Shown here one piece after another: positions 6,480-24,944 of a stretch of DNA of 61,874 bases. The notes under the pieces were generated by a model. That model made no database searches, was not told the DNA's origin, and worked only from the letters and a program-made list of their open reading frames with translations. The stretch covers positions 1 through 61,874 of the IMG/VR virus record IMGVR_UViG_3300021404_000012; one strand, written 5' to 3'. Source of the stretch: a virus (lineage: Duplodnaviria > Caudoviricetes). The first letter of the stretch is position 1, and every line of letters starts with the position of its first letter. The translations under genes and the position numbers were made by a program.

Positions 6480-6516
6480 GCGCCCTCGATTGGGGTTCTC
6501 GCATTGGAAAGGGCTC
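6480..6516 (-). ncRNA. Single TIGR-like guide unit
   Basis: GAGCCC-tttccaat-GCGAGAACCCC-aatcgagg-GCGC in the intergenic gap before polA. Confidence 0.85.
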
Positions 6517-6522
6517 ATCACA

Positions 6523-7242
6523 TTATGATCCTTCTACTTTCGGGGTCAACTTCCAATCTTCAATCGTGCACTGGACCGGTGCCTTATCGACGACGATGCC
6601 GTGCATCTGCGCCCCGGTGAACAGCGCAGAGATCACTTCCATCTTTTCCTCGTTATCGACAAACCAGTCATACGCGCCGCCGCTGCTCGGCCAGTCGAAC
6701 GCGTTGGTATTCCGGGGCAGGTGGCGCACCCGCTCGGCCCACGGGTTGCCCATCTCCTGCGCGACCACCGTCATCCCCGGCCAGCGCTTGATCAGCGAGG
6801 CGAGGGTGCCGCCATGACAGCGGGATAAAAATTCATCGATGATCCTCTTGGCGACGCGCATCTGGCGCGCATACTCAAGCGCCGGGTCGAGCCACGCGTG
6901 GAACGCCTCCCGCTTATCGGCGGTCAGCGCGGCGAGGTTGAACCGCCGGGTCCCGCCGGCGAAGTAAGGATACTTCAAATCCCTCGACACGATCTTCAGC
7001 GTGACCATCGCCTCGGGGGTGACCACTTGCACGTCCAAGGAGTTGGCCTCGTGATGGTACACCTTTGCCTCCTTGACCATGCGCCACGCCTCCTGCAGCT
7101 CACGCGGCCACACGCAGTCGAACGCCTCCTGCGCCGTCAGCGGAAAGTCGAGCAGCCGCAGCGCGAGCGTGCTGTCGATCAGGTCGTTGGCTTTTCTCTT
7201 GAACTGCCGCAGGGGTTCAGGATTGGTCTTATAGTTTGGCAT
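6523..7242 (-). CDS. Hypothetical protein
   Basis: ORF with GGAGTGTGA RBS. Confidence 0.7.
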   Translation of the reverse strand: MPNYKTNPEPLRQFKRKANDLIDSTLALRLLDFPLTAQEAFDCVWPRELQEAWRMVKEAKVYHHEANSLDVQVVTPEAMVTLKIVSRDLKYPYFAGGTRRFNLAALTADKREAFHAWLDPALEYARQMRVAKRIIDEFLSRCHGGTLASLIKRWPGMTVVAQEMGNPWAERVRHLPRNTNAFDWPSSGGAYDWFVDNEEKMEVISALFTGAQMHGIVVDKAPVQCTIEDWKLTPKVEGS

Positions 7243-7519
7243 CTTCACACTCCGTCTGTTCGCCCCGGTGAACCGTCAGTGGCACCGACATGCGATGATG
7301 TTCAAAGGAAACTTGGTAGTAGCCGGTCATGCCGTCTGTCGTCATCCCGACCACTTCAACACTGGTCTCGCCTCCCCAGTTTATTTTTGATAACTCGATC
7401 GCGAACGCCTCCGCTGCCTCCTTCATCCACTGCTTCACCACTACGGTAGTGGTTTGGTCGTTGGTGAAGCGCCAGTACGGCGCTTCACTTGGGTCGTAGA
7501 TGCCGGGGTCCAGGGTCAT
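7229..7519 (-). CDS. Hypothetical protein
   Basis: ORF in operon, ATGA coupling. Confidence 0.55.
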   Translation of the reverse strand: MTLDPGIYDPSEAPYWRFTNDQTTTVVVKQWMKEAAEAFAIELSKINWGGETSVEVVGMTTDGMTGYYQVSFEHHRMSVPLTVHRGEQTECEDAKL

Positions 7520-7707
7520 GCGTCACCTACTTCGTCGACGCTCACCACATCAGGCGGGCCGTTAGTCATAAGAAACCGCCACCCCGTAAAGTCGATTTGC
7601 GCAGCTTTTTCCAGCGCTATGCGCTCAGCATCATCGCTGTTCTCAGCCTCGACGTAGATCGTGGCTTCCTCGCTGAGGAGCTGCGTCAGCCCTACCTTGA
7701 ACTTCAT
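7516..7707 (-). CDS. Hypothetical protein
   Basis: MKFKVGLT... coupled to the vWA gene stop. Confidence 0.6.
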   Translation of the reverse strand: MKFKVGLTQLLSEEATIYVEAENSDDAERIALEKAAQIDFTGWRFLMTNGPPDVVSVDEVGDA

Positions 7708-9098
7708 ACCGTGATCCTCACGGTGTCGCCCCACGGACCCTTGATCTCCGTGGTCGCGCACCAGATGACTGGGTACTTGGGCTCTTGCGGCCAGCTACTG
7801 GGCATCATGTCCGTGAGGTACACGAGGGTATCAGGAATAATATTTCTTTCAGACAACCACTCGAACGCCGGCTGGAACTCCGTGCCGCCGCCACCGGGCG
7901 AACCCTCCTGGCGGATATGCGACAGCTCGTCGAGGCTGCGCGCCTCGTCCACCCGCTGCACCTTGGCGTCGCACCACATGAGCATGACCCTTTTGGGCTT
8001 ACAATCATTCAGCACGCCGCCCACCTCGGCAAAGCACGCGGCGAGTTCCTTCTCACTAACCGAGCCGGAATTGTCCACGACGCACACCACCAGCTCGGCG
8101 CCGTAGCCGCGCCGCCCCGGCATATAGACCATCGGGTTTAAAACTATCCTCCTTCTGTTCGGGTGGTCCCAGGTTTCCCGCCGGTTGCCGACTTTACCGG
8201 TTAGAACTATTCTAATGTGTTCACGCCAGTTAACTTGCGGCTGGAGGATTTCGTCGATCATCCGCTTGATGTTCGCCGGCAGCTTGCCCGCCCGCTTCGC
8301 CGCCTGCTCGGCACGGGCGATGGCCTCCCGAAACTCGACCTCGTGCGGCACGTCGTCTACCCCCTGCCCATCGCGCTCGGGCGGCAGCACCTCGTCAAAG
8401 CGCCCGTTGTTCGCCTGGGCCTGCTTGTCGCGGTCGCCGCCCTTCTTGCCGGTCGCCTCGCCGTAGGTGTTCGGCCTAGGCAATTGCTGTTGCTGACCAT
8501 GTTGCTGACCACTGGCACTACCGGTAGTCGGCTGGCCTTCCTCATCGCTTTCCTCGTCACCCTGTCCACCTTGCGGCGGGCAATTCGGCTGCGGGATCGT
8601 CGGCACCGGCGGGGGAGGCGGCGGTGGGGGAAGTTTCTTGTAGAGCTTGACGTAGACATCCTCGGCCAGCTCGCTGGCCTTGATGTCGGGGTCGTACAGC
8701 CACGCGGGATTGCACGTCCCGATCTTGCTGGCCACGAGGTCGGCGTTGATCACGTAGTCCGCCGCCGTGTTGAACAGGTCCTGCATGAAAGGCAGCCCCT
8801 TCAGCTCGCCGGCCTGAAGGTAGTAGCGCATCCGTATCGGGTGCTTGTAGATGACGTGATACACCTCGTGCGCCAGGGCAAAGCACCGCTCCGTGGGCTT
8901 GAGCGTGGCGAAGTAGGCCGGGTTCACGAAGATGCGCTTGGCGTCCGTCGCGAGCGTCTTGATGGCGCGTGTCGGCCACATCTCCATCTTGTCGTAAAAG
9001 TAATACGAGAAGAACGGAGCGTAGATCACAAAGGAAGCCATGGCTTCCTCCATGATCCGCTGATCGGTGCTGTTGAGGGTTACTTTCGGCGGTAACAT
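7704..9098 (-). CDS. Metallopeptidase plus vWA domain protein (DUF2201-like)
   Basis: HEVYH zincin motif, Pro/Gln/acidic linker, VVDNSGSV MIDAS motif, GGGTEF, YLTD. Confidence 0.88.
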   Translation of the reverse strand: MLPPKVTLNSTDQRIMEEAMASFVIYAPFFSYYFYDKMEMWPTRAIKTLATDAKRIFVNPAYFATLKPTERCFALAHEVYHVIYKHPIRMRYYLQAGELKGLPFMQDLFNTAADYVINADLVASKIGTCNPAWLYDPDIKASELAEDVYVKLYKKLPPPPPPPPVPTIPQPNCPPQGGQGDEESDEEGQPTTGSASGQQHGQQQQLPRPNTYGEATGKKGGDRDKQAQANNGRFDEVLPPERDGQGVDDVPHEVEFREAIARAEQAAKRAGKLPANIKRMIDEILQPQVNWREHIRIVLTGKVGNRRETWDHPNRRRIVLNPMVYMPGRRGYGAELVVCVVDNSGSVSEKELAACFAEVGGVLNDCKPKRVMLMWCDAKVQRVDEARSLDELSHIRQEGSPGGGGTEFQPAFEWLSERNIIPDTLVYLTDMMPSSWPQEPKYPVIWCATTEIKGPWGDTVRITV

Positions 9099-9109
9099 TT
9101 CACACTCCA

Positions 9110-9487
9110 TTACTCGGGTTGGTTGGGTAGATCATCGATTAAATCGGCGTGCGGCATCTCAGGTTGATCGGGCAACTCGACCTGTTCGAGTTCCTCAAGT
9201 TCAACCTCGGTCCAAGCCTCCATCCAGTTGGTGTAGGCTTGCCCCGCGTCGCCGTCCTGCCACTTCTCGGAACGTTCCTCGTAGTAGTCCTCCATCTTCT
9301 GTGCGATCTCGTCGCGAAACGTCACCGCGTCGCCGAGCACACCGTTGTATTCGTCGATCGCCAAGCCGAGCCGCTCGTGCGCGCCCTCAAAGGCTATCCA
9401 CGCTTCCTCGATTGCGTTACCTCGAAGGTTCAACACCTCCACAAACAACTGACGTTGCGTCATCTGGTCCTTGCTGAGCCTCTGCAT
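9110..9487 (-). CDS. Hypothetical acidic protein
   Basis: 125-aa ORF containing ERSEKWQDGDAGQAY. Confidence 0.7.
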   Translation of the reverse strand: MQRLSKDQMTQRQLFVEVLNLRGNAIEEAWIAFEGAHERLGLAIDEYNGVLGDAVTFRDEIAQKMEDYYEERSEKWQDGDAGQAYTNWMEAWTEVELEELEQVELPDQPEMPHADLIDDLPNQPE

Positions 9488-9490
9488 TTT

Positions 9491-10411
9491 TTACAGCCCC
9501 CACTTCGCCAGCTTGTCGATGATCTTCTGGCTCTCCGAAGCGGTCTCCTTGCGCAGACCGTCGTTCTTGCGCAGCGTCTCCGCGTCGAGCCCGGTCAGCA
9601 GCACGTCGATATCACGAGCGATTTCATCTGCCAGTGTGTTTCCTGTAACGTTCCACCCTGGCAACATCGTGATCAGGTCACGCACCGCCTCGATGGACGC
9701 CGCCTTGAAGATTTTACCCTCGCCCTCCTCGTCGGTGGTCAGCCTATCGAGCAAATGCTCGATAGGCGCCCTGACGCGCCGCCACATCTCCTCCTGCACG
9801 ATCTGCGCCTGGGTGTCCTGGCGCCCCTTGAGGTGCTTGCTGAAGCGCTCCAGCATGTGCTCGTCCATCGCGCCGAACTGCTCGCTGTCGGGCACGGGCC
9901 AGAAGTCGAAGTGGACGTTGAACTTCGCCCGCACCTGTTCAGGTGTCGGGTAGCTCATATCGGTCACCATCGTCCCGAGGTTGCCTTTGGCCTGGATCAC
10001 CAGGTCAGGATAGACCGCGCAGAACTCGTCGAGTTCGTTGTAGGCTTCGCGCCGGCGCTCGCCCAGCTCGGCCTCGTATGTATGCACCAAAAGATGGGGC
10101 AATAAACGTGGACCCTCGACCCGCGACGCCCGCCGGTTGCTGACCCACGGCAGGGTCAGCTCCTTGTGCCGCGCCTGCACCGCCTTGAAGGCGTTGCGGG
10201 TGCGCTTCAACTGGCTGTCGGCTCCGGTCATCAGGTACTTGATGACCTTACCCACGTCGCCCCGCGCGCCGTGGGTGCGCTTCACCTCGTCCATGAGGTC
10301 GGGGTCGTTCTGCGAAGCCTCCCACATGGAGAGGCTCACGTCAGCCAGCATGGCCGCTTCCCTGATCGCTTTTGTTAAGTCTTTACTCGATATGGGGGAG
10401 ATGTCGTTCAC
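9491..10411 (-). CDS. DUF3150-like protein
   Basis: Lies between AAA and vWA genes; TLPW...GPRLLP and YPTPEQVRAKF motifs; probable GTG start 10411 with GGAG RBS. Confidence 0.6.
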   Translation of the reverse strand: MNDISPISSKDLTKAIREAAMLADVSLSMWEASQNDPDLMDEVKRTHGARGDVGKVIKYLMTGADSQLKRTRNAFKAVQARHKELTLPWVSNRRASRVEGPRLLPHLLVHTYEAELGERRREAYNELDEFCAVYPDLVIQAKGNLGTMVTDMSYPTPEQVRAKFNVHFDFWPVPDSEQFGAMDEHMLERFSKHLKGRQDTQAQIVQEEMWRRVRAPIEHLLDRLTTDEEGEGKIFKAASIEAVRDLITMLPGWNVTGNTLADEIARDIDVLLTGLDAETLRKNDGLRKETASESQKIIDKLAKWGL

Positions 10412-10514
10412 TTGAGTTACTCCGGTTTCACTACCAGTAGTGGTGGGGGAAAAGCCGCATCGGCCTTTGCACTGGTTGGGACACTGGCTAAGCGTCCCGA
10501 ACCCGAGCCAGCAC

Positions 10515-11723
10515 TTAACTTCTCGCGGCACGAAGAATGTCCTTGTTGTCGACCAGCCACTGCTGGACCTCACGCAGGGGCATCAGCGCCTTGGCACGAC
10601 GGATGTGCGCCATCGTCTGCTCGGTGTCCTTGTCCTCGTGACCGCCCAGCATCACGTCGAACGCGATACGCTGCATCTCGGTGCTGAAGCGCAGCACATA
10701 GCGGGTGATGGCTTGGGCTGTATCTTCAGTAACTTGGTCTGCCAACATGTACGAGCACACCATCTGCGCGTCCTTACCCGCCGGCACCTTCGCAGAACGG
10801 GGGTTCTGGAAGATGTCTTCCAACGCCGGTATCTCGTTGGCAAAGCGCATGTGGGTGAAGAACTGCCCTTGGGCGTGCTTGCCGATCCAGCCCTGGCAGA
10901 TTTCCGCCGCCATCAGGGTCATCGGCAGCTTGTCGTTGGCGATGTCCTGCTCGGTCATCATCACCCGCAGGTCCGCGTCCATCTTGCACAGCGTGCGTGC
11001 GGTGCAGAACGGCTCGGGCTTGTCGGGGACTTCCCTTGGAAAAACAATATCGGGTTGCCTCGCAATGAACGCCCTGGTCAGGATGTGCGGGCGATCGTCG
11101 TCGGGCAGGTCCTCAAGGTGACGTAACAAACAACCCGGATCACCCTCGATCTCCATCAAGCCGTGACGGTTGATGATGTGCATCAGCTCGCGGTTGGTAC
11201 CCGACCGGTCGCTGGTCCGGTTCTTGGCACCGACCACCCGCCATGCAGGAGGGAGAAAATGCGTGCCGACGTTGCCGTCGAGGATCAGCGGCGCCGCCGC
11301 CTTGCGCACGTCCTCGTCCGCCTGACCCCACTCGTCGAGAAAAACCACCCCCACTTCAGGAACCTCACCGTCCCAAGTGCCGGGAGGGTAAACCTCCCCG
11401 TCGGGGGTGAAGACCCAGATGTTGTCAACGTCCGGCATCCACGGGGGTAAAGAAAAAACAGTTCTTGGAACCCCGCCCTTGTCGTCCTTGATGGGGATCA
11501 TAAAACCCCGGATGTCGGGGGTCGTCAGGTTGGCGATCATCTCGATGACTAAACCGACTGGGCAAGCCAGTCGTTTAGCGAGACGAGCGCACATTTGTTC
11601 TATACTCTTGCTCTTGCCGACACCGGGTCCCGACTGCAGCATGTACCCGTTGGCACGGGTGCCCCTGCGGATCGCGTCGATATGGGTGTCGATGAGATGC
11701 GCTCTTGCTTGTTCGATATTCAT
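10515..11723 (-). CDS. MoxR-like AAA+ ATPase
   Basis: SGPGVGKS Walker A, VVFLDEW Walker B, sensor N (GAKNR), TARTL. Confidence 0.88.
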   Translation of the reverse strand: MNIEQARAHLIDTHIDAIRRGTRANGYMLQSGPGVGKSKSIEQMCARLAKRLACPVGLVIEMIANLTTPDIRGFMIPIKDDKGGVPRTVFSLPPWMPDVDNIWVFTPDGEVYPPGTWDGEVPEVGVVFLDEWGQADEDVRKAAAPLILDGNVGTHFLPPAWRVVGAKNRTSDRSGTNRELMHIINRHGLMEIEGDPGCLLRHLEDLPDDDRPHILTRAFIARQPDIVFPREVPDKPEPFCTARTLCKMDADLRVMMTEQDIANDKLPMTLMAAEICQGWIGKHAQGQFFTHMRFANEIPALEDIFQNPRSAKVPAGKDAQMVCSYMLADQVTEDTAQAITRYVLRFSTEMQRIAFDVMLGGHEDKDTEQTMAHIRRAKALMPLREVQQWLVDNKDILRAARS

Positions 11724-11786
11724 CGTAGTCACACTCTCCACTACCGGTAGTCACCAGGGACAATCCCTGGTAACGCCCTGTGTATA

Positions 11787-11815
11787 ATAGTACAATCCTC
11801 ATAGTTTCAGGTCAA
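11787..11815 (-). promoter_or_regulatory. Sigma70-type promoter for the AAA/vWA/replication operon, overlapped by a 21-bp operator
   Basis: TTGACC-N17-TACTAT. Confidence 0.75.
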
Positions 11816-11882
11816 TAAAAATCTTTGACGGTAAAAACAGGGTAAAATTAATCGCTGTGGAATATCAGATAGTTATCGGAAA

Positions 11883-11919
11883 CTGTCACCGACACTACTG
11901 GTAGTGGTGCCGGTGACAG
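11883..11919 (-). terminator. Hairpin closing the 3' end of the main guide array
   Basis: CTGTCACCG...CGGTGACAG stem enclosing a CACTACTGGTAGTG motif. Confidence 0.6.
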
Positions 11920-12385
11920 CTCGCGCTCGAGCAAGGGGTTCTCGCTATTCATGGGGCTCGCGCAGATCGTTGGGGTTCTCGCCAACTGCTGGGCTCGCGC
12001 CTCATCAAGGGTTTTCCGCTAGGTAAAGGGCTCGCGCCGGGGTAAGGGGTTCTCGCCTAACGTTGGGCTCGCGCTTGATCAAGGGTTCTCGCAAGGCACC
12101 AGGCTCGCGCTCATCGTAGGGGTCATCGCAATAAAGGGGGCTCGCGCAAATCGTGGGGGTTGTCGCTTATGACCGGGCTCGCGCTTAGGGCTGGGTTTCT
12201 CGCTCAAGATTGGGCTCGCGCCCACGTTTGGGTTCTCGCTACTCGTAGGGCTCGCGCAATTTCAAGGGTTTGTCGCTCCAGATTGGGCTCACGCTCCTGC
12301 TAGGGGTTCTCGCTGATGGTTGGGGCTCGCGCCGCTCGAAGGGGTTATCGCAACTATTAAGGCTCGCGCCTACTTTCGGGTTGTC
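11919..12385 (-). ncRNA. Main TIGR-like dual-repeat guide array (12 units plus a partial unit) downstream of the Tas-like gene
   Basis: 36-37-nt period, two alternating repeats, 8-nt unique spacers. Confidence 0.93.
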
Positions 12386-12484
12386 TTGATCGCGCGATGC
12401 GACAGCCAAGCCCATTGGTAAATTTCACACGGACACGCAAATGGATGCCGCCTCCATGATGCTCGCATCCTTATTCTCCTGGGC

Positions 12485-13372
12485 TTATGCAGGGATCGGG
12501 GGTGGGATGTAGTCGACGTGGTGCAAATGACCGATGGGGTACGGCACCGGCGACGCTTGCCCGGTGCGGATCAGCCACACTTCGTTCATGTGAGACAAAA
12601 ATAACTTCACCGCCCAGCGTCGTGCCCTCGCGTCTATCTGCGAGGGTGGCAGCCGGCCCTCGGCGTAATGCTTATAAGTGGGTGTATCCTTGGCAAAACG
12701 AGGCAGCCACTCCTTCGCGGTCTCGACCCGTTTGCCGGTATCGGACATCATCTGTTCAAAGGCTTTTCGCTCGCGGTATTTTCTTCCGTAGAAGCAATCT
12801 TCACGGTTCGAGAGTTTCATAAACGACTGCCCCGCGTGCCAGCATATGGTCTTGAGCTGCACGTTGAAGGGGCGCACCTGGCCCGCCTTCCACGGTTTCT
12901 GGTCGGCTGCGGCCCACCCGACGAATGAATTGATATGACCAGCCGTGGGTCTGGGCACCTCCAGATGCGCGAGAATGCCCGCGCTGATCACCGGCCCGAT
13001 CCCGACGATCTGCCGCATCCAACTACCCATTATATGGGCAGTTGTATAGGTATCCAGGGCGCGCTTGATCTGGCTCTCTAAAATTCTCGACTGATTAAAA
13101 AGCCAGTCGATTAGGACGTGGGGTTCTGGCGTTGTCAGAACTTCACCAGCATCTTCCTCGACCACGACGCCCCTCGCCATCGCGCGGATTTGGTTCGCCG
13201 CGCGCTTGCGGTTTTCCTGCGATGTGTAATACGCATCGACCAAAAATCTGGCTTCTTTTGGACCCATCGTGCGGGCGGCGTTGGCTAAATCTCTGGTTAA
13301 CCTGATGACAGACGGCGCGTGCTCGATGATTTCCTCGTCATCGACATAGGTCGCATAGGCTGGCGATGCCAT
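12485..13372 (-). CDS. Nop-domain/IS110-related RNA-guided DNA-binding protein (TasA-like, no RuvC or HNH)
   Basis: Coiled-coil region then GIGPVISAGILAHL (IS110 Transposase_20-like HhH), PFNVQLKT, YGRKYRERK, IDARARRWAVKLFLSH; no N-terminal DEDD RuvC; flanked on both sides by dual-spacer arrays. Confidence 0.8.
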   Translation of the reverse strand: MASPAYATYVDDEEIIEHAPSVIRLTRDLANAARTMGPKEARFLVDAYYTSQENRKRAANQIRAMARGVVVEEDAGEVLTTPEPHVLIDWLFNQSRILESQIKRALDTYTTAHIMGSWMRQIVGIGPVISAGILAHLEVPRPTAGHINSFVGWAAADQKPWKAGQVRPFNVQLKTICWHAGQSFMKLSNREDCFYGRKYRERKAFEQMMSDTGKRVETAKEWLPRFAKDTPTYKHYAEGRLPPSQIDARARRWAVKLFLSHMNEVWLIRTGQASPVPYPIGHLHHVDYIPPPIPA

Positions 13373-13405
13373 GTTGTTCCCTCCCACTTAACTACGGTAG
13401 TGGGA

Positions 13406-13436: not shown

Positions 13437-13438
13437 CG

Positions 13439-13467
13439 AAAAAAAGGGCCGGTCTCTCGACCGGCCC
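13439..13467 (-). terminator. Rho-independent terminator ending the upstream guide array
   Basis: GGGCCGGTC-gaga-GACCGGCCC followed by a T tract on the minus strand. Confidence 0.85.
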
Positions 13468-13470
13468 CCC

Positions 13471-13765
13471 GCGCTGTACAAAGGGGTCATCGCGCGTTGT
13501 AGGGCTCGCGCCCGACGGAGGGTTCTCGCGGTGATACGGGCTCGCGCCAGTCATCGGGGTTATCGCGGAGGATTGGGCTCGCGCTCGTAGTCGGGGTCAT
13601 CGCTTCTTGAGGGGCTCGCGCCGCTTGTCGGGGTTATCGCTCATGTGCGGGCTCGCGCTCGTTGCAGGGGTTGTCGCATATAGCTGGGCTCGCGCTCACC
13701 TTAAGGGTTCTCGTCGTCAACTGGGCTCGCGCACCAGAAAGGGGTTATCGCTTGCTTCAAGGCTC
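13471..13765 (-). ncRNA. TIGR-like guide array (8 units) upstream of the Tas-like gene
   Basis: Same alternating repeats and 8-nt spacers. Confidence 0.92.
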
Positions 13766-17276: not shown

Positions 17277-17278
17277 GG

Positions 17279-17359: not shown

Positions 17360-17423
17360 CACTCACTCCACTACGGTAGTGGCGGTGAATAGTACCATCG
17401 TACTTTCACCGAACAAATCGTGG

Positions 17424-18480: not shown

Positions 18481-18519
18481 ATTGCGCGAACTTTCACGCG
18501 CGCGAAAGATCGTGGGCAC

Positions 18520-18553
18520 AAAAAAACCCCGCACGGCGCAAGCCGTGCGGGGT
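18520..18553 (-). terminator. Rho-independent terminator
   Basis: CCCCGCACGGC-ttgc-GCCGTGCGGGG followed by a T tract. Confidence 0.85.
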
Positions 18554-18572
18554 CGAGTGTGAGCGTCGCTGA

Positions 18573-19532
18573 CTAGTCAGTCAGCTTGCCGACGCCAGCG
18601 TTCGCCTTGGCGTTCGCCGCAGCCCTACGTAGGTCGGGCTTGCCGCGCATCTTCGCAGCGCGCTCTGCCTGCCGCTTCTCAGCGGCGGCAGCGTCTTCGC
18701 GAGCCTGGCGCGCCGCTTCGAGCCGCTTGTAGTCGATACCTTTCAGGTATTCCATGACGACATCCCACTCGTCGCAACCTTCCGGGTATTCGTCGGCAAC
18801 GATCTCCAAGCTCTTGAGAGCTTGCCGCACGAGGTTGGCGCAGCGCTTGGGATCGCGGCGCAACTTCTTGCCCCGAGCCTCACAGAAATCCTCAAGGCTA
18901 TCAAAGATAGCCTCGTCCTCGGGTGTCGTTGCCCCAGCACGGGCGTCGAGCAAACCGCCTTTCTGGAACACGGCATGGTAGGACTTAGCGAAGCTATCAT
19001 GCAGCGGGGTATCGACGTCATCCTTTTTGAAGGATTTGCCAGCCGCTTTCGCCTCGTCTCTTGCCACTTTTGTGGCAGCAGTTTCCTCTGCCCACATCTC
19101 ACGCGCTCTCGTGAGATCGCTCTCGACGTGCTCACGGGCTTTCGGGTGGATGGCACGCTCGATCTCGCTACGCAATTGGGTGAGCGTGTCCTCGGTCGAA
19201 TTGCGCTCGTCACGATATGCGGCGATTGCGAGATCGACGCCTTGCATAACGTACTGAACTTCGTTCCACTCGTTTTCGATCGCCGCCTTGACTATCGTCA
19301 AGATGAGCGACACGCGGGTTCCATCGTGCGCATCGCTAGCCTTGTCAAAATCCGACTTGGCTAAACCTTTGGTTTGATCCGACTTGGCATACTTGCCAAT
19401 GATGTCATCCATGACCGCTTTAGCGGCAGTCGTGATGGGGTCGACGGGCTTGGGTGTCGCCACCGCGTCAGGCGTCGGCTTCGCCTCGTCTGTGACGAGC
19501 TGAACGGGGGACTTCGTGTTTGTGTTTGCCAT
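18573..19532 (-). CDS. Hypothetical helical early protein
   Basis: 319-aa Ala/Lys/Glu-rich ORF with its own terminator. Confidence 0.75.
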   Translation of the reverse strand: MANTNTKSPVQLVTDEAKPTPDAVATPKPVDPITTAAKAVMDDIIGKYAKSDQTKGLAKSDFDKASDAHDGTRVSLILTIVKAAIENEWNEVQYVMQGVDLAIAAYRDERNSTEDTLTQLRSEIERAIHPKAREHVESDLTRAREMWAEETAATKVARDEAKAAGKSFKKDDVDTPLHDSFAKSYHAVFQKGGLLDARAGATTPEDEAIFDSLEDFCEARGKKLRRDPKRCANLVRQALKSLEIVADEYPEGCDEWDVVMEYLKGIDYKRLEAARQAREDAAAAEKRQAERAAKMRGKPDLRRAAANAKANAGVGKLTD

Positions 19533-19873
19533 GATTGCGAACTCACACTTTGGTTGTCGGGACGATGTTGTCCCATCAATGGCGAAGCTGATTTGAACTA
19601 CCGGTAGTGCCACCTTCACCGTCACAAAGTGACGGTGCGGACCTGGCCCTTGTGCATGATGCGTGCGTCATTATGCGTGCATCCCGTGCGCGTCACGAGG
19701 CTTCGGCCAGCCCCCGGCCCCGGTCTGTCCATGGCCCCCGGCCTGGCTCCCGCCGCCACCTGCAGCGCCTAGACGAGAGTGACCCAAAAAGTGAAGTTAA
19801 CTTTTATTAACGCCACTTCACCACTACGGTAGTGCGGTACGTCGCACCGGCAGCCCTAGGAACTGCCGGTGCC

Positions 19874-20201
19874 GCGCGTCACTCTGGGTTTCACGCCTAA
19901 AAAAGGGCTCGCGCCATCTGTTGGGTTCAATCGCACATCCTTGGGCTCGCGCCGCATCAAGGGTTTTCCGCTCACCTAAGGGCTTACGCTACTTGCCGGG
20001 TTTTCCGCTTTCCATTTGGTTCGCGCGTTTCTTCGGGGTTCTCGCACAAGGTCGGGCTCGCGCTGCCTGTCGGGTTCTCGCTCAGGACTGGGCTAAATCG
20101 AACCGCCGGCGCCGCCGGCGGCTCACACGCAGAGTGTCGGGGTTTTCGCCTGTAACTGGGTTCGCGCAATACATAGGGTTCAACGCGTGTCCTGAGGGCT
20201 C
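19874..20201 (-). ncRNA. TIGR-like guide array (6+2 units, split by a GC hairpin at 20103-20121)
   Basis: Alternating repeats (loop variants GCGGAAAACCC, GCGATTGAACCC) with 8-nt spacers; 3' hairpin at 19843-19872. Confidence 0.85.
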
Positions 20202-20341
20202 CGTGGTTGTTCACCACGGTTCACAGAATATCACCGTCGTAAATACAGGTCTACAAGTTTCGTATTTTTGAGATTGAGGATTTTCAATAACTTAACGTTT
20301 CTCTTGCGCGCGAATGACATTCTCGTTACGGTTTTATTCCC

Positions 20342-21034
20342 ATGATCCTCCCCCCAGACGGTCAAGGCCACATCCGGTTCGCCGCGATCTCGCGCACGGC
20401 GCTGGGCACGCGCTGCGCGCGGCTAAACGATCTGCAAAAATTCTACTCTCGATTACCTAAACTACAGTGCGACAAGGTAATTCACCTCGGCGGGGTTACC
20501 GAGACGGCGGCGCCCGAACTCGCGAAAATTTACCCCCGCGTCGAGGGCGTGACCACCGTCGAGCTGGCAAACGGCAGCTTCGCCCCCTGCGGCGGGCGTA
20601 TGCTGCGGGAAGGCCGCGCCGACTGGGTTACCACCCCAAATAAGATACCCCTCGCCCTACGGGCTCTGGAGGGCATTAAAAACGAAACGGTCCTGTGTCT
20701 TTATTATGACCGGTCGGGGGATCGGGGTTTATCTGAAATTGCCGATGAGGTGTATGAGCGCGATAGCGAGCGGGGGCGAATGGAAGGTGGTAACACTTCG
20801 TTTGTGATCTTGGTCGGGGGCCAGCGCCGGCTGGCGCACCGGTACTTTCAGAATACCACGCGCACCACCTGCTTTGTCGGCAGCGTCGGGGTGTTCGACG
20901 CCCGCGCCAGTGTCAAGAACCCGCCGGCGCCCTACGGCGGCAGCATCGTCGAGGTGAAGCTGCACGGTGACGGCAGCTTGGACACCTGCACGCTGACCTT
21001 TCGCGACATGTCTGGGGGGATGCCGGATGTCTGA
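20342..21034 (+). CDS. Degenerate calcineurin-like metallophosphoesterase-fold protein
   Basis: IRFAAISRTALG, VIHLGG, ILVGGQR and GGSIVEV fall at the positions of the DxH, GD and GHxH motifs, but the metal ligands are lost. Confidence 0.5.
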   Translation: MILPPDGQGHIRFAAISRTALGTRCARLNDLQKFYSRLPKLQCDKVIHLGGVTETAAPELAKIYPRVEGVTTVELANGSFAPCGGRMLREGRADWVTTPNKIPLALRALEGIKNETVLCLYYDRSGDRGLSEIADEVYERDSERGRMEGGNTSFVILVGGQRRLAHRYFQNTTRTTCFVGSVGVFDARASVKNPPAPYGGSIVEVKLHGDGSLDTCTLTFRDMSGGMPDV

Positions 21035-21239
21035 AGTGCGTGAGCGAGTGAAAGTAAGTGATAGGGTGATTGTCACCGATCACAGCGAGGTTATCCAAAT
21101 CTCGGTCTACCGCGACGCCGACAAGCTGGTCTGCGTCGAGCAGTCTCCCCTGCAATCGCTGATGATCGCCGAGCGGCTGCTCGACGCCGCGCTGCGCCGG
21201 CTGATCGTGGACAGCGAGACCCGCGCCAAGTTTTTGTAG
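21027..21239 (+). CDS. Hypothetical protein
   Basis: Overlaps the upstream stop. Confidence 0.55.
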   Translation: MSEVRERVKVSDRVIVTDHSEVIQISVYRDADKLVCVEQSPLQSLMIAERLLDAALRRLIVDSETRAKFL

Positions 21240-21608
21240 GGTTTTGTAGGGTTGTGTAGGGTGTTGCGTGGTTCCGCGACGTTCTGTCGCACGCCCCGCA
21301 AACCTTACGGCAGGGGTGCGTTCCTTACACATGGCTGTCATTCAGGGTTGTGGACAATCTGCCGGTCATCCCGATAAGTGGTTTCATATAAAATGTTTTT
21401 CACGCCTCCGTGAGCCCCTGGCCCCACGGGCCAGGGGTAGGAGCTGATGTGAACATACATGGTACATACGCAATGTGATAGTATAACCTCCATAATAAGG
21501 CGGCTAAAATTACAATGGCCTAAGGGACGGTAATAAAATATAAATATGAACCTTATACACCGGCGTTCTGTTGGTTGTGGGCAGAAGCGTGATCTGTGGA
21601 GGTTATAT

Positions 21609-22133
21609 ATGAGAGGAAGTGGAGCGGCGCGTGGGGGCGCCGCTGCAGGGCGTGGGGAACCAGAAACGCTGCCGCCGGTTAATTCGTATGTCATCAGCGG
21701 AATAACCGAGTGGTTGTACGGTCGGGAACGTATGCAACGCCGGCCCGAGGCGACGGCGAAAGTGTTGTGGCTCGTGTGCGTGCTGCACAAGGATAGGATA
21801 CCTTGGCCCACAAGGCCGGCGGTCTCAACGCACCTGGGTGTGTCGATGCCGTTGGTGGACGTGGCGATCTCGCAAAGGCGGGCCGATGGTTTGCTTACTG
21901 TGGTGATCGAGACCAAGCGCGGGCACGTCAAGCAACGGGCGTCGGTGGTAACCGACAAATACATCGAGCCTAGCGAGGAACTCTTTAAGATTTTTCGCGA
22001 TGCCGAGAAAGCCGAGAAGAAATTACTTAAGAAAGCCGCGACGGCGGCGAAGTCCGTGGCGTTTATCACCACGGGCGCGACGGCCCTTTGTTTGGCCCAG
22101 TTATGTTGCGCTTGCTTTCTCCACTATATATAG
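21609..22133 (+). CDS. Putative winged-HTH DNA-binding protein
   Basis: WPTRPAVSTHLGVSMPLVDVAISQRRADGLL is wHTH-like; GGAGG RBS. Confidence 0.55.
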   Translation: MRGSGAARGGAAAGRGEPETLPPVNSYVISGITEWLYGRERMQRRPEATAKVLWLVCVLHKDRIPWPTRPAVSTHLGVSMPLVDVAISQRRADGLLTVVIETKRGHVKQRASVVTDKYIEPSEELFKIFRDAEKAEKKLLKKAATAAKSVAFITTGATALCLAQLCCACFLHYI

Positions 22134-22257
22134 GTAATATAGTTGCACTGCCTGCCGCTTGGTGTTTGCTGGCGGGCTGGGTTAGACGGCGAGTGCCATA
22201 AAAACCCCGTCATCGGGTGGGGGCCTTTTCACACTCGGCCCCGCGACCCGATTTTTT

Positions 22258-22294
22258 GAGCCCGGCCAGGGGCGAGAACCCCACCGCATAGCGC
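22258..22294 (+). ncRNA. Single TIGR-like guide unit
   Basis: GAGCCC-ggccaggg-GCGAGAACCCC-accgcata-GCGC followed by a terminator. Confidence 0.85.
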
Positions 22295-22296
22295 GG

Positions 22297-22323
22297 AACC
22301 GGCCCCCTGCGGGGCCGGTTTTT
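22297..22323 (+). terminator. Terminator after the single guide unit
   Basis: AACCGGCCCC-ctgc-GGGGCCGGTT followed by TTT. Confidence 0.75.
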
Positions 22324-22342
22324 ATGGTTACTACCGGTAGTG

Positions 22343-22630
22343 CTACTGACCTGAGGTGCTGCCCCCGAGGATGTAGCCGGCGATCGCCGAGAGCGCGGCG
22401 AGCGCGGCCTCGCCGCTGATCTTCTCCTGCAAGCACAAAAGCGCGATCGTCGGGACTATCAAGAATAATACGATCGCCCGCGAGATGATCCGCCCCTCGA
22501 TCATCTGCCGGACCGTCGCGTCGCTGCCGGGGGCGAAGAAGATACTGCCAAAAACCAGCAGGCCGGTGACGGTGACTAAAATCCCCACCATGCCGAACGC
22601 CGCCCAGATCAGGCGATCGTGGCTGTCCAT
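22343..22630 (-). CDS. Membrane protein (holin-like candidate)
   Basis: Three hydrophobic helices, ends AIAGYILG. Confidence 0.55.
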   Translation of the reverse strand: MDSHDRLIWAAFGMVGILVTVTGLLVFGSIFFAPGSDATVRQMIEGRIISRAIVLFLIVPTIALLCLQEKISGEAALAALSAIAGYILGGSTSGQ

Positions 22631-22634
22631 CGCG

Positions 22635-22841
22635 TCACTTAATTTCCATGCAGCGGGTGACGATCTGCGTCACCAGCGCGGTTCGCCGGTCGATCTGATC
22701 GGCGAGGAACCACATCACCAGACCCAAAAACACCACATTAAGCAGCACCAGCATGAGGAAAGCCGGCGGCAGCGCGCCGATCAGCTTCGAGCTGATATCG
22801 GTGACCGCGCCGATCGTGCCCTCGTGTTGAGGTTCGCTCAT
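22635..22841 (-). CDS. Small membrane protein
   Basis: Single transmembrane helix. Confidence 0.6.
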   Translation of the reverse strand: MSEPQHEGTIGAVTDISSKLIGALPPAFLMLVLLNVVFLGLVMWFLADQIDRRTALVTQIVTRCMEIK

Positions 22842-23026
22842 TGATCAAGATGATCCCTCAGATAGTCCCCCAGATGCTGGCATATGTCGTGTGCCCGCAC
22901 TAAGGGACTGCTTCCTACGTGAGCTACATTTAGCAACAGCGTCACAAGGTCTTCGAGCATCTCCTGCGAGGGGTCTTCAAGCGCGGCGACGGCGCCCTCG
23001 TGTTTGGGATCGGGAGGTTCACTCAT
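22838..23026 (-). CDS. Hypothetical protein
   Basis: ATGA-coupled; N-terminus resembles that of the neighbour (MSEP..HEG). Confidence 0.55.
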   Translation of the reverse strand: MSEPPDPKHEGAVAALEDPSQEMLEDLVTLLLNVAHVGSSPLVRAHDICQHLGDYLRDHLDQ

Positions 23027-23232
23027 GGTGTCTGCTGCTGTTCAGCCGCCTCCAGGCCCAGCGGGCCGGGGGGCGGCACCGGCGGGGCCGCGCCAAACCG
23101 CGCGACGTACTGCCGCGTCAGCGAGTGGCGGCAGTACATCCATAGGTTTGTATCGTTGCTCAGTTGAGTAGCCCGCGTGGCGGGGGTGGTCGAGAGGTTG
23201 ATCATGCGCTGGTAATAAAGCCGTGATGCCAT
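23023..23232 (-). CDS. Hypothetical protein
   Basis: AGGAGG RBS. Confidence 0.6.
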   Translation of the reverse strand: MASRLYYQRMINLSTTPATRATQLSNDTNLWMYCRHSLTRQYVARFGAAPPVPPPGPLGLEAAEQQQTP

Positions 23233-23243
23233 TGGTTCCTCCT

Positions 23244-23459
23244 TTAAGACCGAGGCGTCCCGTCAGGGTGCCGGGTGATGGCGATGTTGGCCCACATCGC
23301 GACTTCGCGGAGCTTGCGCATCAGGTAGGTTTTGTCAGGCCCTTCGGGGATGATCAGATCAAGGTCTTTCGCCAATTCGCTGAATAGCTCGCGCGCCTGG
23401 CCCATCGTTGTCATCTGATCGTCGGTTGGCTTTAGGTATTCAAATGTAGACTTGTCCAT
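23244..23459 (-). CDS. Acb2/Tad1-like helical hairpin protein (candidate anti-defence nucleotide sponge)
   Basis: FEYLKPT..Q...R...ELA....IPEGPDKT..MRKLREVAMWANIAI pattern. Confidence 0.5.
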   Translation of the reverse strand: MDKSTFEYLKPTDDQMTTMGQARELFSELAKDLDLIIPEGPDKTYLMRKLREVAMWANIAITRHPDGTPRS

Positions 23460-23470
23460 CGTTCCCTCCT

Positions 23471-24883
23471 TCACGTCCACGCCGCTGATGAATACGGCGC
23501 TAACCCTGTGCCTTGCGTAGGGTTAAAGAAGCGGCGTTCTCGCATGAGAACCCTGCCGGTGAGGTTGCTCTGGGTGCCCAGGCAGAAATACTGGAGCGCG
23601 TCGCAGATATCCGACCAGGGGTGTAATTTCTCAGGTATGTCGTCGAGGACGCCGTCGCGGCGCCGCCTGTATCGATACTTATTACCGAGGGCGGAAATCA
23701 GGATCGGGCACCCGATCCTGCTTATTTGCAGGGCCGGCTGGCCCATCACCTGCTGTCTGAGGAATTTCTCGACGGCCAGCAACCGCATATCAATTACATT
23801 CGTACTCGCAGGGTAGGCTAAAAATCCCTCCTCCTTCAACACGTCGAAGGGGGTTTCTTCCCTGGTTTGCGACCGTTGGCGACCCGCAGGATCACCCACC
23901 ACAAAAACTCTTTTCCCCGCAAACGGCGGCGCCAGTAAGACCGGCTTGAGGTGCTCCTGCAGCATCTGCACCAGCCCCATGCCCTCGGTGACGATCTCCT
24001 TCATAATTATGGCTCTGCCGTAATTATCGTGCTGCCCGATCAGCGCGCACGGCGTGCGTCCGAAGTCCAAACCGATCATCAGGGGTTTGTTTGGATTAAC
24101 TGTTACACTCATGTCCTTGACGTGGGTGGGCGCGTGGAAGGTTCGCCTGAACACCGCCTGGCCGGCGTTGCTCTCGCCCCACTGGCTCTCGACGTGAACC
24201 AGGGACCACTCAACATCCTTGTCCCCCATTAATTCATCATAGTAGCCGTCAGGAAGGTTCTCGACGTTCTCGGCGTCGGGGCCGATGCCTGACGGCTGGT
24301 GATACAGCGCCCATGACGGGTGCGGATTTAATACCAGCCGGTCGTGGTAGGGACTTTCTGTATCCCAGGGATTTGTATCGGCGATGATCCCGCGCCAAGT
24401 GGCGCCGCCGAGGGCCTTGGAGGGATATCTTCCACACCGACCCAGTAGTGGGCGGATGATGTCGAACGGCACTTCACGCAGCTCGTTGATCCACGCGCCG
24501 GTGAGCTGCATTGAGAGTAACCTTCGGACATCTTCCTTGTTGTCCAACGGCAGTAGCATCCAGTCGCTGTGAACGCCTGTCCCATCCGGCAGGTGCAGCC
24601 TCACCTGCAGCGTGCTGTCGGTGACATAGTAGTGAACCGTCTCGCCCATGTACTGGATCGCGTCGGCTAGGACGGTCTGGCGGAGTTGCTGCAGCGTGTT
24701 TCTGATGAGCGCGAAGCGGGTGTAGCGGACGCCGTTGCTCGGCTCCTGCTCGATCGCCCGCCGCAGCAGCTCCATAATGCAGCCCATGGTCTTGCCCGAA
24801 CCGAGGGGGCCGACCAGCACGCGGATGACGTGTTGATCATCCAGCATGAAGTCCTGCACGGTTGGCGGGGGCTGGAAGAACAT
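23471..24883 (-). CDS. terL: Terminase large subunit
   Basis: GPLGSGKT Walker A, AWINE Walker B, DTNP, GLDFGRTP RNase H fold, GDPAG, DALQY. Confidence 0.93.
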   Translation of the reverse strand: MFFQPPPTVQDFMLDDQHVIRVLVGPLGSGKTMGCIMELLRRAIEQEPSNGVRYTRFALIRNTLQQLRQTVLADAIQYMGETVHYYVTDSTLQVRLHLPDGTGVHSDWMLLPLDNKEDVRRLLSMQLTGAWINELREVPFDIIRPLLGRCGRYPSKALGGATWRGIIADTNPWDTESPYHDRLVLNPHPSWALYHQPSGIGPDAENVENLPDGYYDELMGDKDVEWSLVHVESQWGESNAGQAVFRRTFHAPTHVKDMSVTVNPNKPLMIGLDFGRTPCALIGQHDNYGRAIIMKEIVTEGMGLVQMLQEHLKPVLLAPPFAGKRVFVVGDPAGRQRSQTREETPFDVLKEEGFLAYPASTNVIDMRLLAVEKFLRQQVMGQPALQISRIGCPILISALGNKYRYRRRRDGVLDDIPEKLHPWSDICDALQYFCLGTQSNLTGRVLMRERRFFNPTQGTGLAPYSSAAWT

Positions 24884-24902
24884 TGTCTACCAGTCCCCGC
24901 CC

Positions 24903-24944
24903 GCGCATGGGACAGGGTTTTCACGCGGGTTCGTGGGCTCGCGC
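24903..24944 (-). ncRNA. Single TIGR-like guide unit between terS and terL
   Basis: GCGCGAGCCC-acgaaccc-GCGTGAAAACCC-tgtcccat-GCGC. Confidence 0.8.

What the first reader, a model, noticed from the sequence alone, without database searches (positions are those of the whole stretch)
6480..24944. Hypothesis: RNA-guided allele exclusion (gene-drive-like) among co-infecting phages
A guide cassette placed next to a silently recoded, resistant copy of its own target mirrors free-standing homing endonucleases that cause marker exclusion in T-even phages. In mixed infection, blocking or cutting the rival allele would favour inheritance of the cassette together with the resistant allele. The Tas-like protein has no evident nuclease, so the effect could be a replication or transcription roadblock, or could use the phage Cas4-like or VRR-NUC nucleases. 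Prophage-mediated superinfection defence is the alternative.
Basis: inference. Interest (0 to 1): 0.8.

Follow-up and report, generated by a model that had tools for sequence, protein, structure and literature searches.

The report
Phage guide RNAs targeting rival alleles
A soil phage carries short guide-RNA cassettes beside its own genes, and each guide matches the neighbouring gene except at silent codon positions, which suggests the guides are aimed at related rival phages while the phage's own copies are spared.

Summary
The window is a near-complete temperate phage genome (integrase present). It holds a dual-repeat TIGR system: a nuclease-less TasA (12485-13387, minus strand) and 39 guide units. 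These sit in five arrays and three single-unit cassettes: S1 6479-16, S2 22258-95, S3 24902-40.

I read the target as spacer A followed by the reverse complement of spacer B. Under that rule all three solo cassettes, and the last unit of array A1, match a site 47-566 nt away in the neighbouring coding gene. They differ from it by 2-4 mismatches, and every mismatch is synonymous. There are six such self hits in all, against 0 in five control geometries and a mean of 0.42 in 200 shuffles.

No guide-perfect target was found in any other phage I could reach. Relatives lack the cassette, and their sites are 2 or more mismatches from the guide.

Best reading (about 0.55): RNA-guided exclusion of close relatives without a nuclease, with the self allele immune and kept linked to its guide. 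[quoted passage not shown] Published work calls the natural targets of TIGR guides unknown, so this lead is valuable.

The parts
194..412 (-). TIGR array A0, 6 units, downstream of the helicase gene 412-2007
4567..6476 (-). Family A DNA polymerase gene. Its likely ATG is at 6476, directly downstream of S1.
6479..6516 (-). Solo cassette S1: one complete guide unit with truncated edge repeats. It is the best-scoring unit of the window (26.4 bits).
6522..6549 (-). Sigma-70-like promoter, 10 of 12 consensus matches with a 16-nt spacer. The predicted start falls at the 5' end of S1, and the -10 box overlaps the stop codon of gene 6523-7248.
   Evidence: and reading. This is a consensus match only.
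6550..6565 (.). Self near-cognate site of S1: 4 mismatches, all synonymous (peptide TIEDWK). It abuts the -35 box.
6569..6584 (.). Near-cognate site (2 synonymous mismatches, KAPVQC) of a guide carried by another phage contig (locus L063)
6523..7248 (-). Gene of unknown function that holds the S1 site in its 3' end
10515..11724 (-). ATPase gene (phrog_1297). Its start codon lies inside the near-cognate site of A1 unit 12.
11709..11724 (.). Self near-cognate site of A1 unit 12: 2 mismatches, synonymous (TMNIEQ), 237 nt from the unit
11922..12365 (-). TIGR array A1, 12 units, downstream of tasA, with a degenerate partial unit reaching 12385
12485..13387 (-). tasA: a TIGR-associated Nop-domain protein without a nuclease domain. 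The likely ATG is at 13372.
13470..13765 (-). TIGR array A2, 8 units, with 5'- and 3'-truncated edge repeats
13443..13470 (-). Intrinsic terminator at the 3' end of A2. It fixes the minus strand as the RNA strand.
17398..17413 (.). Near-cognate site of A0 unit 5: 1 mismatch, probably intergenic, beside a palindrome and a ribosome-binding site. Its status is uncertain.
19776..19791 (.). Near-cognate site of A3 unit 8: 2 mismatches, non-coding, about 100 nt beyond the array end. Its status is uncertain.
19873..20200 (-). TIGR array A3, 8 units in two blocks split by a GC hairpin. Its repeats are more degenerate.
21546..22133 (+). Conserved phage gene of unknown function that holds the S2 site. 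Homologues lie near the terminase gene of relatives.
21793..21808 (.). Self near-cognate site of S2: 4 mismatches, all synonymous (DRIPWP), including a two-base Arg codon change
22258..22295 (+). Solo cassette S2 (26.2 bits), followed by a 9-bp GC hairpin and a T run at 22298-22324
23471..24883 (-). Large terminase gene that holds the S3 site
24361..24376 (.). Self near-cognate site of S3: 4 mismatches, all synonymous (TNPWDT), at codons 170-174
24902..24940 (-). Solo cassette S3 in the 71-nt gap before the terminase start. It has a variant loop repeat and scores 13.5 bits.
53861..53933 (+). TIGR array A4, 2 units, between the tail genes and the lysogeny region
55705..56916 (-). Tyrosine integrase, which marks a temperate lifestyle

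Best explanation
This is a phage-borne TIGR-TasA system used against close relatives of the phage itself.

TasA is a Nop-domain protein without RuvC or HNH. Inferred from published TasA, TasR and TasH work: it binds guide RNAs of about 36-37 nt cut from five arrays and three single-unit cassettes. Each guide reads a 16-bp DNA site, with spacer A pairing one strand and spacer B pairing the abutting stretch of the other strand.

Shown here: four guides are cognate to a version of the neighbouring phage gene that encodes the same peptide as the phage's own copy. They differ from that copy at 2-4 silent positions.

Inferred: in a cell that holds this phage, as prophage or co-infecting genome, together with a relative carrying the matching allele, TasA sits on the relative's genes. 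The sites are the region next to the polymerase-operon promoter, the ATPase start codon, a conserved gene beside the terminase, and the terminase itself. Binding blocks transcription or replication. The phage's own mismatched alleles are not bound.

Inferred: keeping each guide within 50-600 nt of its immune allele stops recombination from creating a self-targeting genome. As a side effect, guide and allele travel together.
For: Membership in the Tas family:
- NCBIfam NF052498 scores 167.6 bits against a cut-off of 100.
- A profile of the family hits solved TasR (6e-20), TasH (1e-12) and IS621 (5e-4).
- The model (pLDDT 82.4) is helical with one small hairpin. Its best Foldseek matches are TasH and TasR complexes.

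Guide units: 39 were parsed. A terminator fixes the RNA strand.

Self sites: 6 fully synonymous hits occur in the correct geometry, against 0 in each of five controls and a mean of 0.42 in 200 shuffles. Four of the 6 lie within 600 nt of their guide, against a null mean of 0.055.

All 14 mismatches of the four adjacent pairs are silent, so the guide tracks a real coding allele.

S1 and S2 are the two best-scoring units of the window, so they are not decayed. S1 sits at the predicted start of a promoter.

Relatives:
- None of the 24 related terminase loci with at least 100 nt of upstream sequence shows a cassette there.
- 0 of 5 related full genomes has tas or any unit.
- In the nearest relative, the S2 site agrees with the guide at all four positions where the window's own copy differs.

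Cross-phage hits: synonymous 2-mismatch hits number 9 in the correct geometry, against 0-3 in controls and 1.0 after re-pairing spacers. One of them is another phage's guide landing 3 nt from the S1 site.

Published work:
- TasA represses transcription when guided to DNA (section read).
- Mismatches abolish TasR activity (section read).
- Virus-borne mini-CRISPR arrays show the same pattern of proximity and a mutated self locus (passages read).
Against: No perfect or 1-mismatch target was found in another phage:
- The 39 guides were tested against five full relatives.
- Of 21 terminase loci at 72-85% identity, 15 sites are at 2 mismatches, 3 at 3 and 3 at 5.
- 139 guides were tested against 562,652 bases.

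A further 115 guides from other Tas-bearing contigs give no synonymous hit on the window.

Of the 39 guides, 33 have no recognisable cognate anywhere.

The terminase self site is no more diverged than the gene at large (rank 54 of 94). The window's own codon is the rarer one in only 10 of 13 cases. So deliberate recoding is not shown.

Expression and processing of the cassettes, and DNA binding by this TasA, are untested. Promoter calls are consensus matches only.

The closest relative, a 61,898-nt contig whose Tas is 88% identical, could not be fetched.
Confidence: 0.55

Rival explanations
1. Gene-drive-like homing. Binding of the rival allele stalls replication or recruits a phage nuclease. 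The damage is repaired from the cassette-bearing genome, so cassette and immune allele are copied into the rival, as with free-standing homing endonucleases of T-even phages.
For: The cassette lies 47-566 nt from its site and the self allele is mismatched. Relatives lack the S3 cassette. A PD-(D/E)XK nuclease (2599-3312) and a weak Mu Gam-like protein are encoded. Faure 2025 reports that TasR drives plasmid loss rather than blocking entry (section read).
Against: TasA has no nuclease fold. No partner is known. No VRR-NUC was found among the ORFs I scanned, and not all ORFs were scanned. No cassette-less genome with a perfect site was found, so no empty homing site is documented. Nothing here measures conversion.
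Confidence: 0.15
2. Self-regulation. The guides act on the phage's own mismatched sites to time expression of the polymerase operon, the ATPase and the terminase, or to help keep lytic genes silent in the lysogen.
For: Several sites are in regulatory places. The S1 site abuts a -35 box. The A1 unit 12 site covers a start codon. The A0 unit 5 site (1 mismatch) and the A3 unit 8 site (2 near-terminal mismatches) are intergenic, beside a conserved palindrome. TasA is a repressor in reporter assays.
Against: The three solo guides have 4 of 16 mismatches, including central positions. In ParTasR most single internal mismatches, and double edge mismatches, abolish activity. In SpTasH a central mismatch blocks one strand. 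A regulator has no reason to differ from its operator only at silent codon positions.
Confidence: 0.08
3. By-product of how guide units are born. Units are copied from nearby DNA by some templated process. The solo cassettes are newborn or orphaned units with no present target, and the gene has since drifted at silent sites.
For: No adaptation machinery is known for TIGR. A spacer pair equals one half-site in direct orientation and the other in inverted orientation, which needs a templated process and is not a simple duplication. Proximity would follow naturally from local copying. Array units are gained and lost among soil strains (joints at 12137>12248, 12323>12361 and 19952>20036).
Against: S1 and S2 are the most canonical units in the genome. 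S1 has a promoter and S2 a terminator. If the guides drifted freely, about two thirds of changes would be non-silent in the gene's frame, yet 14 of 14 are silent. A guide matching the self genome at birth would be harmful.
Confidence: 0.12

Closest known systems
Dual-repeat TIGR-TasA systems (Faure et al. 2025, PMC12045711; Xu et al. 2026, bioRxiv 10.64898/2026.09.09.750476)
   Same: A Nop-domain Tas protein. Alternating edge and loop repeats with short paired spacers and a period of about 36 nt. Truncated edge repeats at array ends and a terminator. Arrays on both sides of tas. A phage host.
   Different: Here guide units are also scattered 6-40 kb from tas, as three single-unit cassettes and three further arrays. 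For four guides a natural cognate locus can be named. Both papers say natural targets are undetermined (sections read).
Virus-borne mini-CRISPR arrays in interviral conflicts (Medvedeva et al. 2019, PMC6858448)
   Same: One or two guides in intergenic regions of a virus. Targets lie close to the array. The carrier's own orthologous locus is mutated so that it is spared. The proposed role is heterotypic superinfection exclusion (passages read).
   Different: Those use CRISPR repeats and the host's Cas proteins, cleave the target, and have 100% matches to a co-occurring sister virus. Here the phage brings its own nuclease-less effector, the guides are split 8+8 nt, and no perfect match has been found.
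Free-standing homing endonucleases of T-even phages (Seg and Mob families; marker exclusion). This comparison is recalled and comes from no call.
   Same: A small selfish insert between conserved genes. Its target lies a few hundred bases away in the neighbour gene. The self allele is resistant through silent polymorphism.
   Different: Those are protein endonucleases that make a break. Here recognition is by RNA and no nuclease is evident.
Nuclease-free CRISPR interference between mobile elements (type IV and type V-M), as cited in the discussion of Faure 2025
   Same: RNA-guided binding without cutting, used by one mobile element against another.
   Different: A different protein family and guide architecture. 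Those systems have no reported guide-beside-immune-allele layout.

Membership tests
TIGR-Tas system | Tas protein with a Nop-type RNA-binding domain | tested here: met
   NF052498 scores 167.6 bits against a cut-off of 100. The profile hits TasR 9mty at 6e-20 and TasH at 1e-12. Foldseek's top hits are TasH and TasR.
TIGR-Tas system | Array of two alternating short repeats with paired short spacers and a period of about 36 nt | tested here: met
   39 units of 36-38 nt with 10-nt edge repeats, 10-12-nt loop repeats and 8-nt spacers.
TIGR-Tas system | Arrays begin and end with truncated edge repeats and end in a terminator | tested here: met
   Array A2 runs 13765 to 13470 and is followed by a 12-bp hairpin and a T run. 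The solos S1 and S2 also carry truncated edges.
TIGR-Tas system | Processing into guide RNAs of about 36 nt bound by Tas | not testable with these tools
   No RNA data were available, and the public runs found were DNA contigs. The C-terminal HVDYI-PP stretch aligns with that of TasR.
TasA subtype (no nuclease) | Absence of an N-terminal RuvC or HNH domain | tested here: met
   Only about 55-70 residues precede the shared region. The model is helical with one two-strand hairpin. No Pfam nuclease domain was found.
Tandem-spacer targeting (spacer A on one strand, spacer B on the abutting part of the other) | Natural sites fit spacer A plus the reverse complement of spacer B with no gap | tested here: met
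   Only this geometry gives synonymous self hits: 6, against 0 in five other arrangements. The direction agrees with the 3' overhangs reported for TasR. My arithmetic gives 10 nt for that overhang where the paper gives 8, and this is unresolved.
Virus-borne mini-array interviral exclusion | Guide matches a closely related virus perfectly | tested here: not met
   The best match in any other phage has 2 mismatches. The closest relatives could not be fetched.
Virus-borne mini-array interviral exclusion | The carrier's own orthologous site is mutated, and the target lies near the array | tested here: met
   There are 2-4 silent mismatches at 47-566 nt from the guide, for 4 guides.
Homing endonuclease-like drive | A site-specific DNA break made by the element | tested here: not met
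   No nuclease domain is present in TasA.
Homing endonuclease-like drive | Element-less alleles carry the cleavable site, and flanks are co-converted | tested here: inconclusive
   Relatives lack the S3 cassette, but their sites are 2-5 mismatches from the guide. Conversion cannot be tested with these tools.

The most novel reading that the evidence does not exclude
Single-unit tigRNA cassettes are autonomous 'guide plus immune allele' modules. Each would be born by templated copying of the neighbouring gene, then silence the unrecoded allele in any related genome sharing the cell. They would spread by recombination without a nuclease: an RNA-programmed poison-antidote drive that pushes phage lineages apart.
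Probability: 0.15. Interest if true: 0.9.

Novelty: new variant of a known kind. Interest (0 to 1): 0.75.

Why it matters
Two papers from the group that discovered TIGR-Tas state that the natural targets of TIGR guides, and the role of nuclease-less TasA, are unknown. This genome names cognate loci for four guides, and they are the phage's own neighbour genes in a silently different version.

That points to competition between related phages as the native role. It confirms the tandem-spacer target geometry from natural sequence alone. It implies that spacers are copied from DNA by some templated route.

It also shows that guide units can be dispersed far from tas, so surveys limited to tas neighbourhoods will miss them.

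In the searchable library no paper holds both 'TIGR-Tas' and 'superinfection' (0 papers). Among the 15 of 1,070 papers listed, none links tigRNAs with homing or superinfection.

Tried and rejected
Searches for a perfect target, none found:
- The window's 39 guides against five related full genomes.
- All 25 terminase loci.
- 139 guides against 562,652 bases.
- 115 further guides against the window.

Searches for close relatives:
- Megablast of 25 kb against INPHARED phages gave no match.
- Relatives of gene 6523-7248 and orf 21546-22133 in IMG/VR gave none.
- Terminase relatives in GTDB genomes gave none.
- The closest Tas (88% identity, on a 61,898-nt contig) did not appear in the metagenome scan.

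Sequencing runs:
- Four soil runs hold 6-23% of the sampled words.
- Laid on 6000-25500, they gave only short contigs.
- The table of differences was cut (857 rows not shown), so the alleles at the four sites could not be read.
- I draw nothing from uncovered parts.

Test for localised recoding. The terminase site ranks 54 of 94 conserved 5-codon windows. I therefore rejected it as evidence for deliberate recoding.

Two of the six synonymous hits are doubtful:
- A0 unit 5 lies in an ORF (17142-17645) with a poor-looking peptide and no homologues, so it is probably intergenic.
- A1 unit 11 lies 26 kb from its guide, and its guide allele uses four rare codons.
About 0.4 chance hits are expected.

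Other negative results:
- Gapped targets of 1-2 nt and five other spacer arrangements showed no enrichment.
- Rfam gave no family.
- Pfam gave nothing for Tas.
- PHROGs calls Tas a 'transposase', which reflects its kinship with IS110.

Supplementary files of the papers were not opened. Table S1 and fig. S4 of Faure 2025, and TIGRSafari, may already list this locus.


Full report
WHAT THE WINDOW IS

The window is one whole IMG/VR virus record of 61,874 bases, rated 98% complete. Its first 131 bases repeat at its end at 98% identity, so the genome is closed or circularly permuted.

It encodes the following:
- a helicase, a PD-(D/E)XK exonuclease, a family A DNA polymerase and an ATPase
- a polynucleotide kinase and a large terminase
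- a portal-like protein, tail fibre genes and a primase-helicase
- a tyrosine integrase at 55705-56916

The integrase marks the phage as temperate. The sequencing runs that hold parts of the genome are soil metagenomes.

THE REPEATS

Repeat finders show units of 36-37 nt. Read on the minus strand, an edge repeat (GCGCGAGCCC) alternates with a loop repeat (GCGAGAACCC, sometimes with one more C). The repeats are separated by 8-nt spacers.

[quoted passage not shown] A 12-bp hairpin and a T run follow it on the minus strand. This is the layout published for TIGR arrays (section read), and it fixes the transcribed strand.

I parsed 39 units:
- A0: 194-412, 6 units
- S1: 6479-6516, solo
- A1: 11922-12365, 12 units
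- A2: 13470-13765, 8 units
- A3: 19873-20200, 8 units
- S2: 22258-22295, solo, plus strand, followed by its own hairpin and T run
- S3: 24902-24940, solo
- A4: 53861-53933, 2 units, plus strand

A sequence model built from the 39 units finds all of them and no other full unit. S1 and S2 are its two best matches, at 26.4 and 26.2 bits. One half-unit remnant lies at 55-75. Rfam has no family for these units.

THE PROTEIN

The gene between A1 and A2 (12485-13387, minus strand) has no Pfam hit. It passes the NCBIfam model for TIGR-Tas proteins at 167.6 bits, against a cut-off of 100.

A profile of 36 homologues hits the solved TasR structure (6e-20), TasH (1e-12) and the IS621 recombinase (5e-4). 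The predicted structure (pLDDT 82.4) is helical with one small hairpin. Its best Foldseek matches are the TasH and TasR complexes.

Only about 55-70 residues precede the region shared with TasR and TasH. That is too few for a RuvC domain, and no HNH pattern is present.

The family is large. There are 1,318 proteins at E <= 0.001, and the closest is 88% identical on a 61,898-nt contig. I could not fetch that contig.

TARGET RULE

Published work shows that spacer A pairs one DNA strand and spacer B pairs the adjacent stretch of the other strand. Swapped spacers still work, and cleavage leaves 3' overhangs (sections read).

The 3' overhang implies that one strand of the site reads as spacer A followed by the reverse complement of spacer B. 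My arithmetic gives a 10-nt overhang for that layout, where the paper states 8. I could not resolve this. I therefore tested this arrangement against five others on the window itself.

THE KEY RESULT

I called 73 genes with a simple GC3-based caller. I then asked which near-matches to a guide's predicted site (up to 6 mismatches of 16) leave the encoded peptide unchanged in the called frame, partial codons included.

The predicted arrangement gives six such hits at 4 mismatches or fewer. Each of the five other arrangements gives none at 5 or fewer.

In 200 shuffles I either re-paired spacers or scrambled letters within them. The mean was 0.42 hits and the maximum 2. For hits within 600 nt of the guide, the mean was 0.055 and the maximum 1, against 4 observed.

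The four adjacent pairs are:
- S1 with 6550-6565, in the 3' end of gene 6523-7248: 4 mismatches, 47 nt away
- S2 with 21793-21808, in orf 21546-22133: 4 mismatches, 471 nt away
- S3 with 24361-24376, in the terminase gene: 4 mismatches, 566 nt away
- the last unit of A1 with 11709-11724, which covers the ATPase start codon: 2 mismatches, 237 nt away

All 14 mismatches are silent, including a two-base change between Arg codons in the S2 site. So all three solo cassettes sit beside a silently different copy of their cognate site.

The other two hits are doubtful (A0 unit 5 at 17398 and A1 unit 11 at 38112). They are about what chance allows.

Two further close matches are non-coding and lie next to a conserved palindrome. 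They are A0 unit 5 with 1 mismatch and A3 unit 8 with 2 mismatches at 19776, about 100 nt past the array end.

WHAT THE SILENT PATTERN MEANS

If the guides drifted freely, most of their changes would alter the peptide in the gene's frame. None does. The guide-perfect sequence is therefore a working allele of the same gene, either a relative's or an ancestral one.

A spacer pair is one half-site in direct orientation and the other half in inverted orientation. A simple duplication cannot make it. Some templated copying is implied.

RELATIVES

Twenty-five terminase relatives were found in IMG/VR. None of the 24 with at least 100 nt of upstream sequence shows a cassette there.

Five full related genomes have no tas (0 of 5) and no guide unit.

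At the site homologous to the S3 target, the 21 loci with 72-85% terminase identity split as follows: 15 at 2 mismatches from the guide, 3 at 3, and 3 at 5. The window's own copy is at 4.

At the S2 site, the nearest relative agrees with the guide at all four positions where the window's own copy differs. It differs from the guide at two other positions, where guide and own copy agree. So the guide's allele lies between the two.

No site anywhere is perfect or one mismatch away.

Other phages carry the same repeat family:
- The repeat-pattern scan matched 21 stretches.
- Of the ten records behind them that I searched, four have Tas at 63-76% identity.

These keep one large array beside tas. 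The dispersed solos are thus special to this genome.

Across 139 guides and ten genomes, silent 2-mismatch hits number 9 in the predicted arrangement. Controls give 0-3, and re-paired spacers give 1.0. Four of the nine are S3 on four related terminases, so about six hits are independent.

Two cross-phage hits stand out:
- A guide of another contig lands at 6569-6584 in the window, 3 nt from the S1 site.
- A guide of the 76% relative matches the tas genes of several phages at 2-3 mismatches.

A further 115 guides gave nothing on the window.

EVIDENCE AGAINST 'RECODING'

The terminase site is no more diverged from relatives than the rest of the gene. Its value is 0.57 against a mean of 0.58, which ranks it 54 of 94 windows.

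The window's own codon is the rarer one in 10 of 13 changed codons of the four adjacent pairs. That is only a weak hint. Ordinary silent divergence between lineages explains the mismatches as well as selection for escape does.

HOW IT MOST LIKELY WORKS

Shown here: the parts, the geometry, the adjacency, the silent mismatches, and the lack of a nuclease.

From the literature:
- TasA with a guide binds DNA and represses transcription reversibly in E. coli.
- Most single internal mismatches, and double edge mismatches, abolish TasR activity in yeast.
- A central mismatch blocks one strand in TasH.

Inferred: the phage's own sites, with 2-4 mismatches, are not bound. A relative carrying the matching allele would be bound at four places:
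- the region abutting the -35 box of the promoter in front of S1 and the polymerase gene (a consensus match only)
- the ATPase start codon
- the conserved gene beside the terminase
- the terminase gene itself

Binding there would shut the relative down. Tight linkage of guide and immune allele prevents recombinants that would target themselves.

Context remains open. S1 and S3 sit inside lytic operons, which fits action during lytic growth. On the other side, tasA with A1 and A2 lies next to a sugar-transferase gene between terminators, and the phage has an integrase. That fits expression from the prophage. I cannot tell the two contexts apart.

COMPARISON WITH WHAT IS KNOWN

The system is a member of the TIGR-TasA family.

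Its logic is closest to virus-borne mini-CRISPR arrays. For those, the passages I read report three things:
- The carrier's orthologous locus is mutated.
- The reason for the proximity is unclear.

The differences here are the effector (the phage's own, without a nuclease), the split 8+8 guide, and the lack of a documented perfect target.

The likeness to free-standing homing endonucleases is one of layout only. The defining break-making enzyme is absent.

VERDICT

The exclusion idea is the best-supported reading, at about 0.55. The drive idea is possible but untested, at about 0.15. Self-regulation (0.08) and a birth by-product (0.12) are less likely.

The find is a new variant of a known kind. 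It makes a stated open question, what TIGR guides aim at in nature, directly testable.

Noticed in passing
window 179-191, 1989-2001, 7439-7451, 13390-13402, 15502-15514, 17369-17381, 17635-17647, 19822-19834, 25042-25054 and five more: A 13-nt palindrome (CACTACSGTAGTG) occurs 14 times against 0.06 expected. It usually lies just before a ribosome-binding site and start codon, including that of tasA, and after arrays A0, A1 and A3. Variants appear in the same position in related phages. It is probably a family-specific regulatory hairpin or operator.
   Followed up: partly
window 1-131 and 61744-61874: The ends overlap by 131 nt at 98% identity, so the record is a closed genome of about 61.7 kb although it is labelled linear.
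   Followed up: yes
locus L066 / G006 9277-9302, and tas genes of G000, G007, G009, L052: A guide of a related phage (Tas 76% identical) is near-cognate to the conserved MNEVWL codons of tas itself. It is 2-3 mismatches from every allele seen, and 3 from its own allele, which includes one amino-acid change. It may be a guide aimed at rival TIGR systems.
   Followed up: partly
window 12137>12248, 12323>12361, 19952>20036: Soil metagenome contigs join across 1-3 guide units. This suggests gain or loss of units among close strains. It rests on single low-depth contigs only.
   Followed up: no
window 236-243, 13696-13703, 19972-19979; also 11996-12033 against 19948-19985: The same or nearly the same 8-nt spacer recurs in three arrays (A0 unit 5, A2 unit 2, A3 unit 6). 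A1 unit 10 and A3 unit 6 share an unusual loop repeat and a similar spacer B. Units therefore seem to be copied between arrays.
   Followed up: no
window 55-75 (repeated at 61798-61818): A half-unit remnant (loop repeat, spacer, partial edge) lies inside a coding region, at 11.9 bits.
   Followed up: no
window 13795-14498: A bacterial sugar transferase gene (PF02397) sits between a two-way terminator (14472-14498) and array A2. It looks like a lysogenic-conversion gene beside the TIGR locus.
   Followed up: no
window 17270-17400, minus strand: An 11-codon mini-ORF runs through the palindrome and ends in an overlapping stop-start with a 27-codon hydrophobic ORF. The 1-mismatch site of A0 unit 5 covers the ribosome-binding site and start codon of the mini-ORF.
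   Followed up: no
loci L094-L113: Tas homologues at 39-53% identity lie in bacterial genomes of Acidobacteriota, Nitrosomonas, Propionivibrio, Halomonas and others. One lies in a 6.69-Mb scaffold of the isolate Acidobacteriaceae bacterium KBS 96. These are likely prophages and possible native test systems.
   Followed up: no
window 17700-18560: An AT-richer stretch holds most of the promoter-like sites of the left arm and a strong terminator at 18525-18554. It may be a regulatory or origin region.
   Followed up: no
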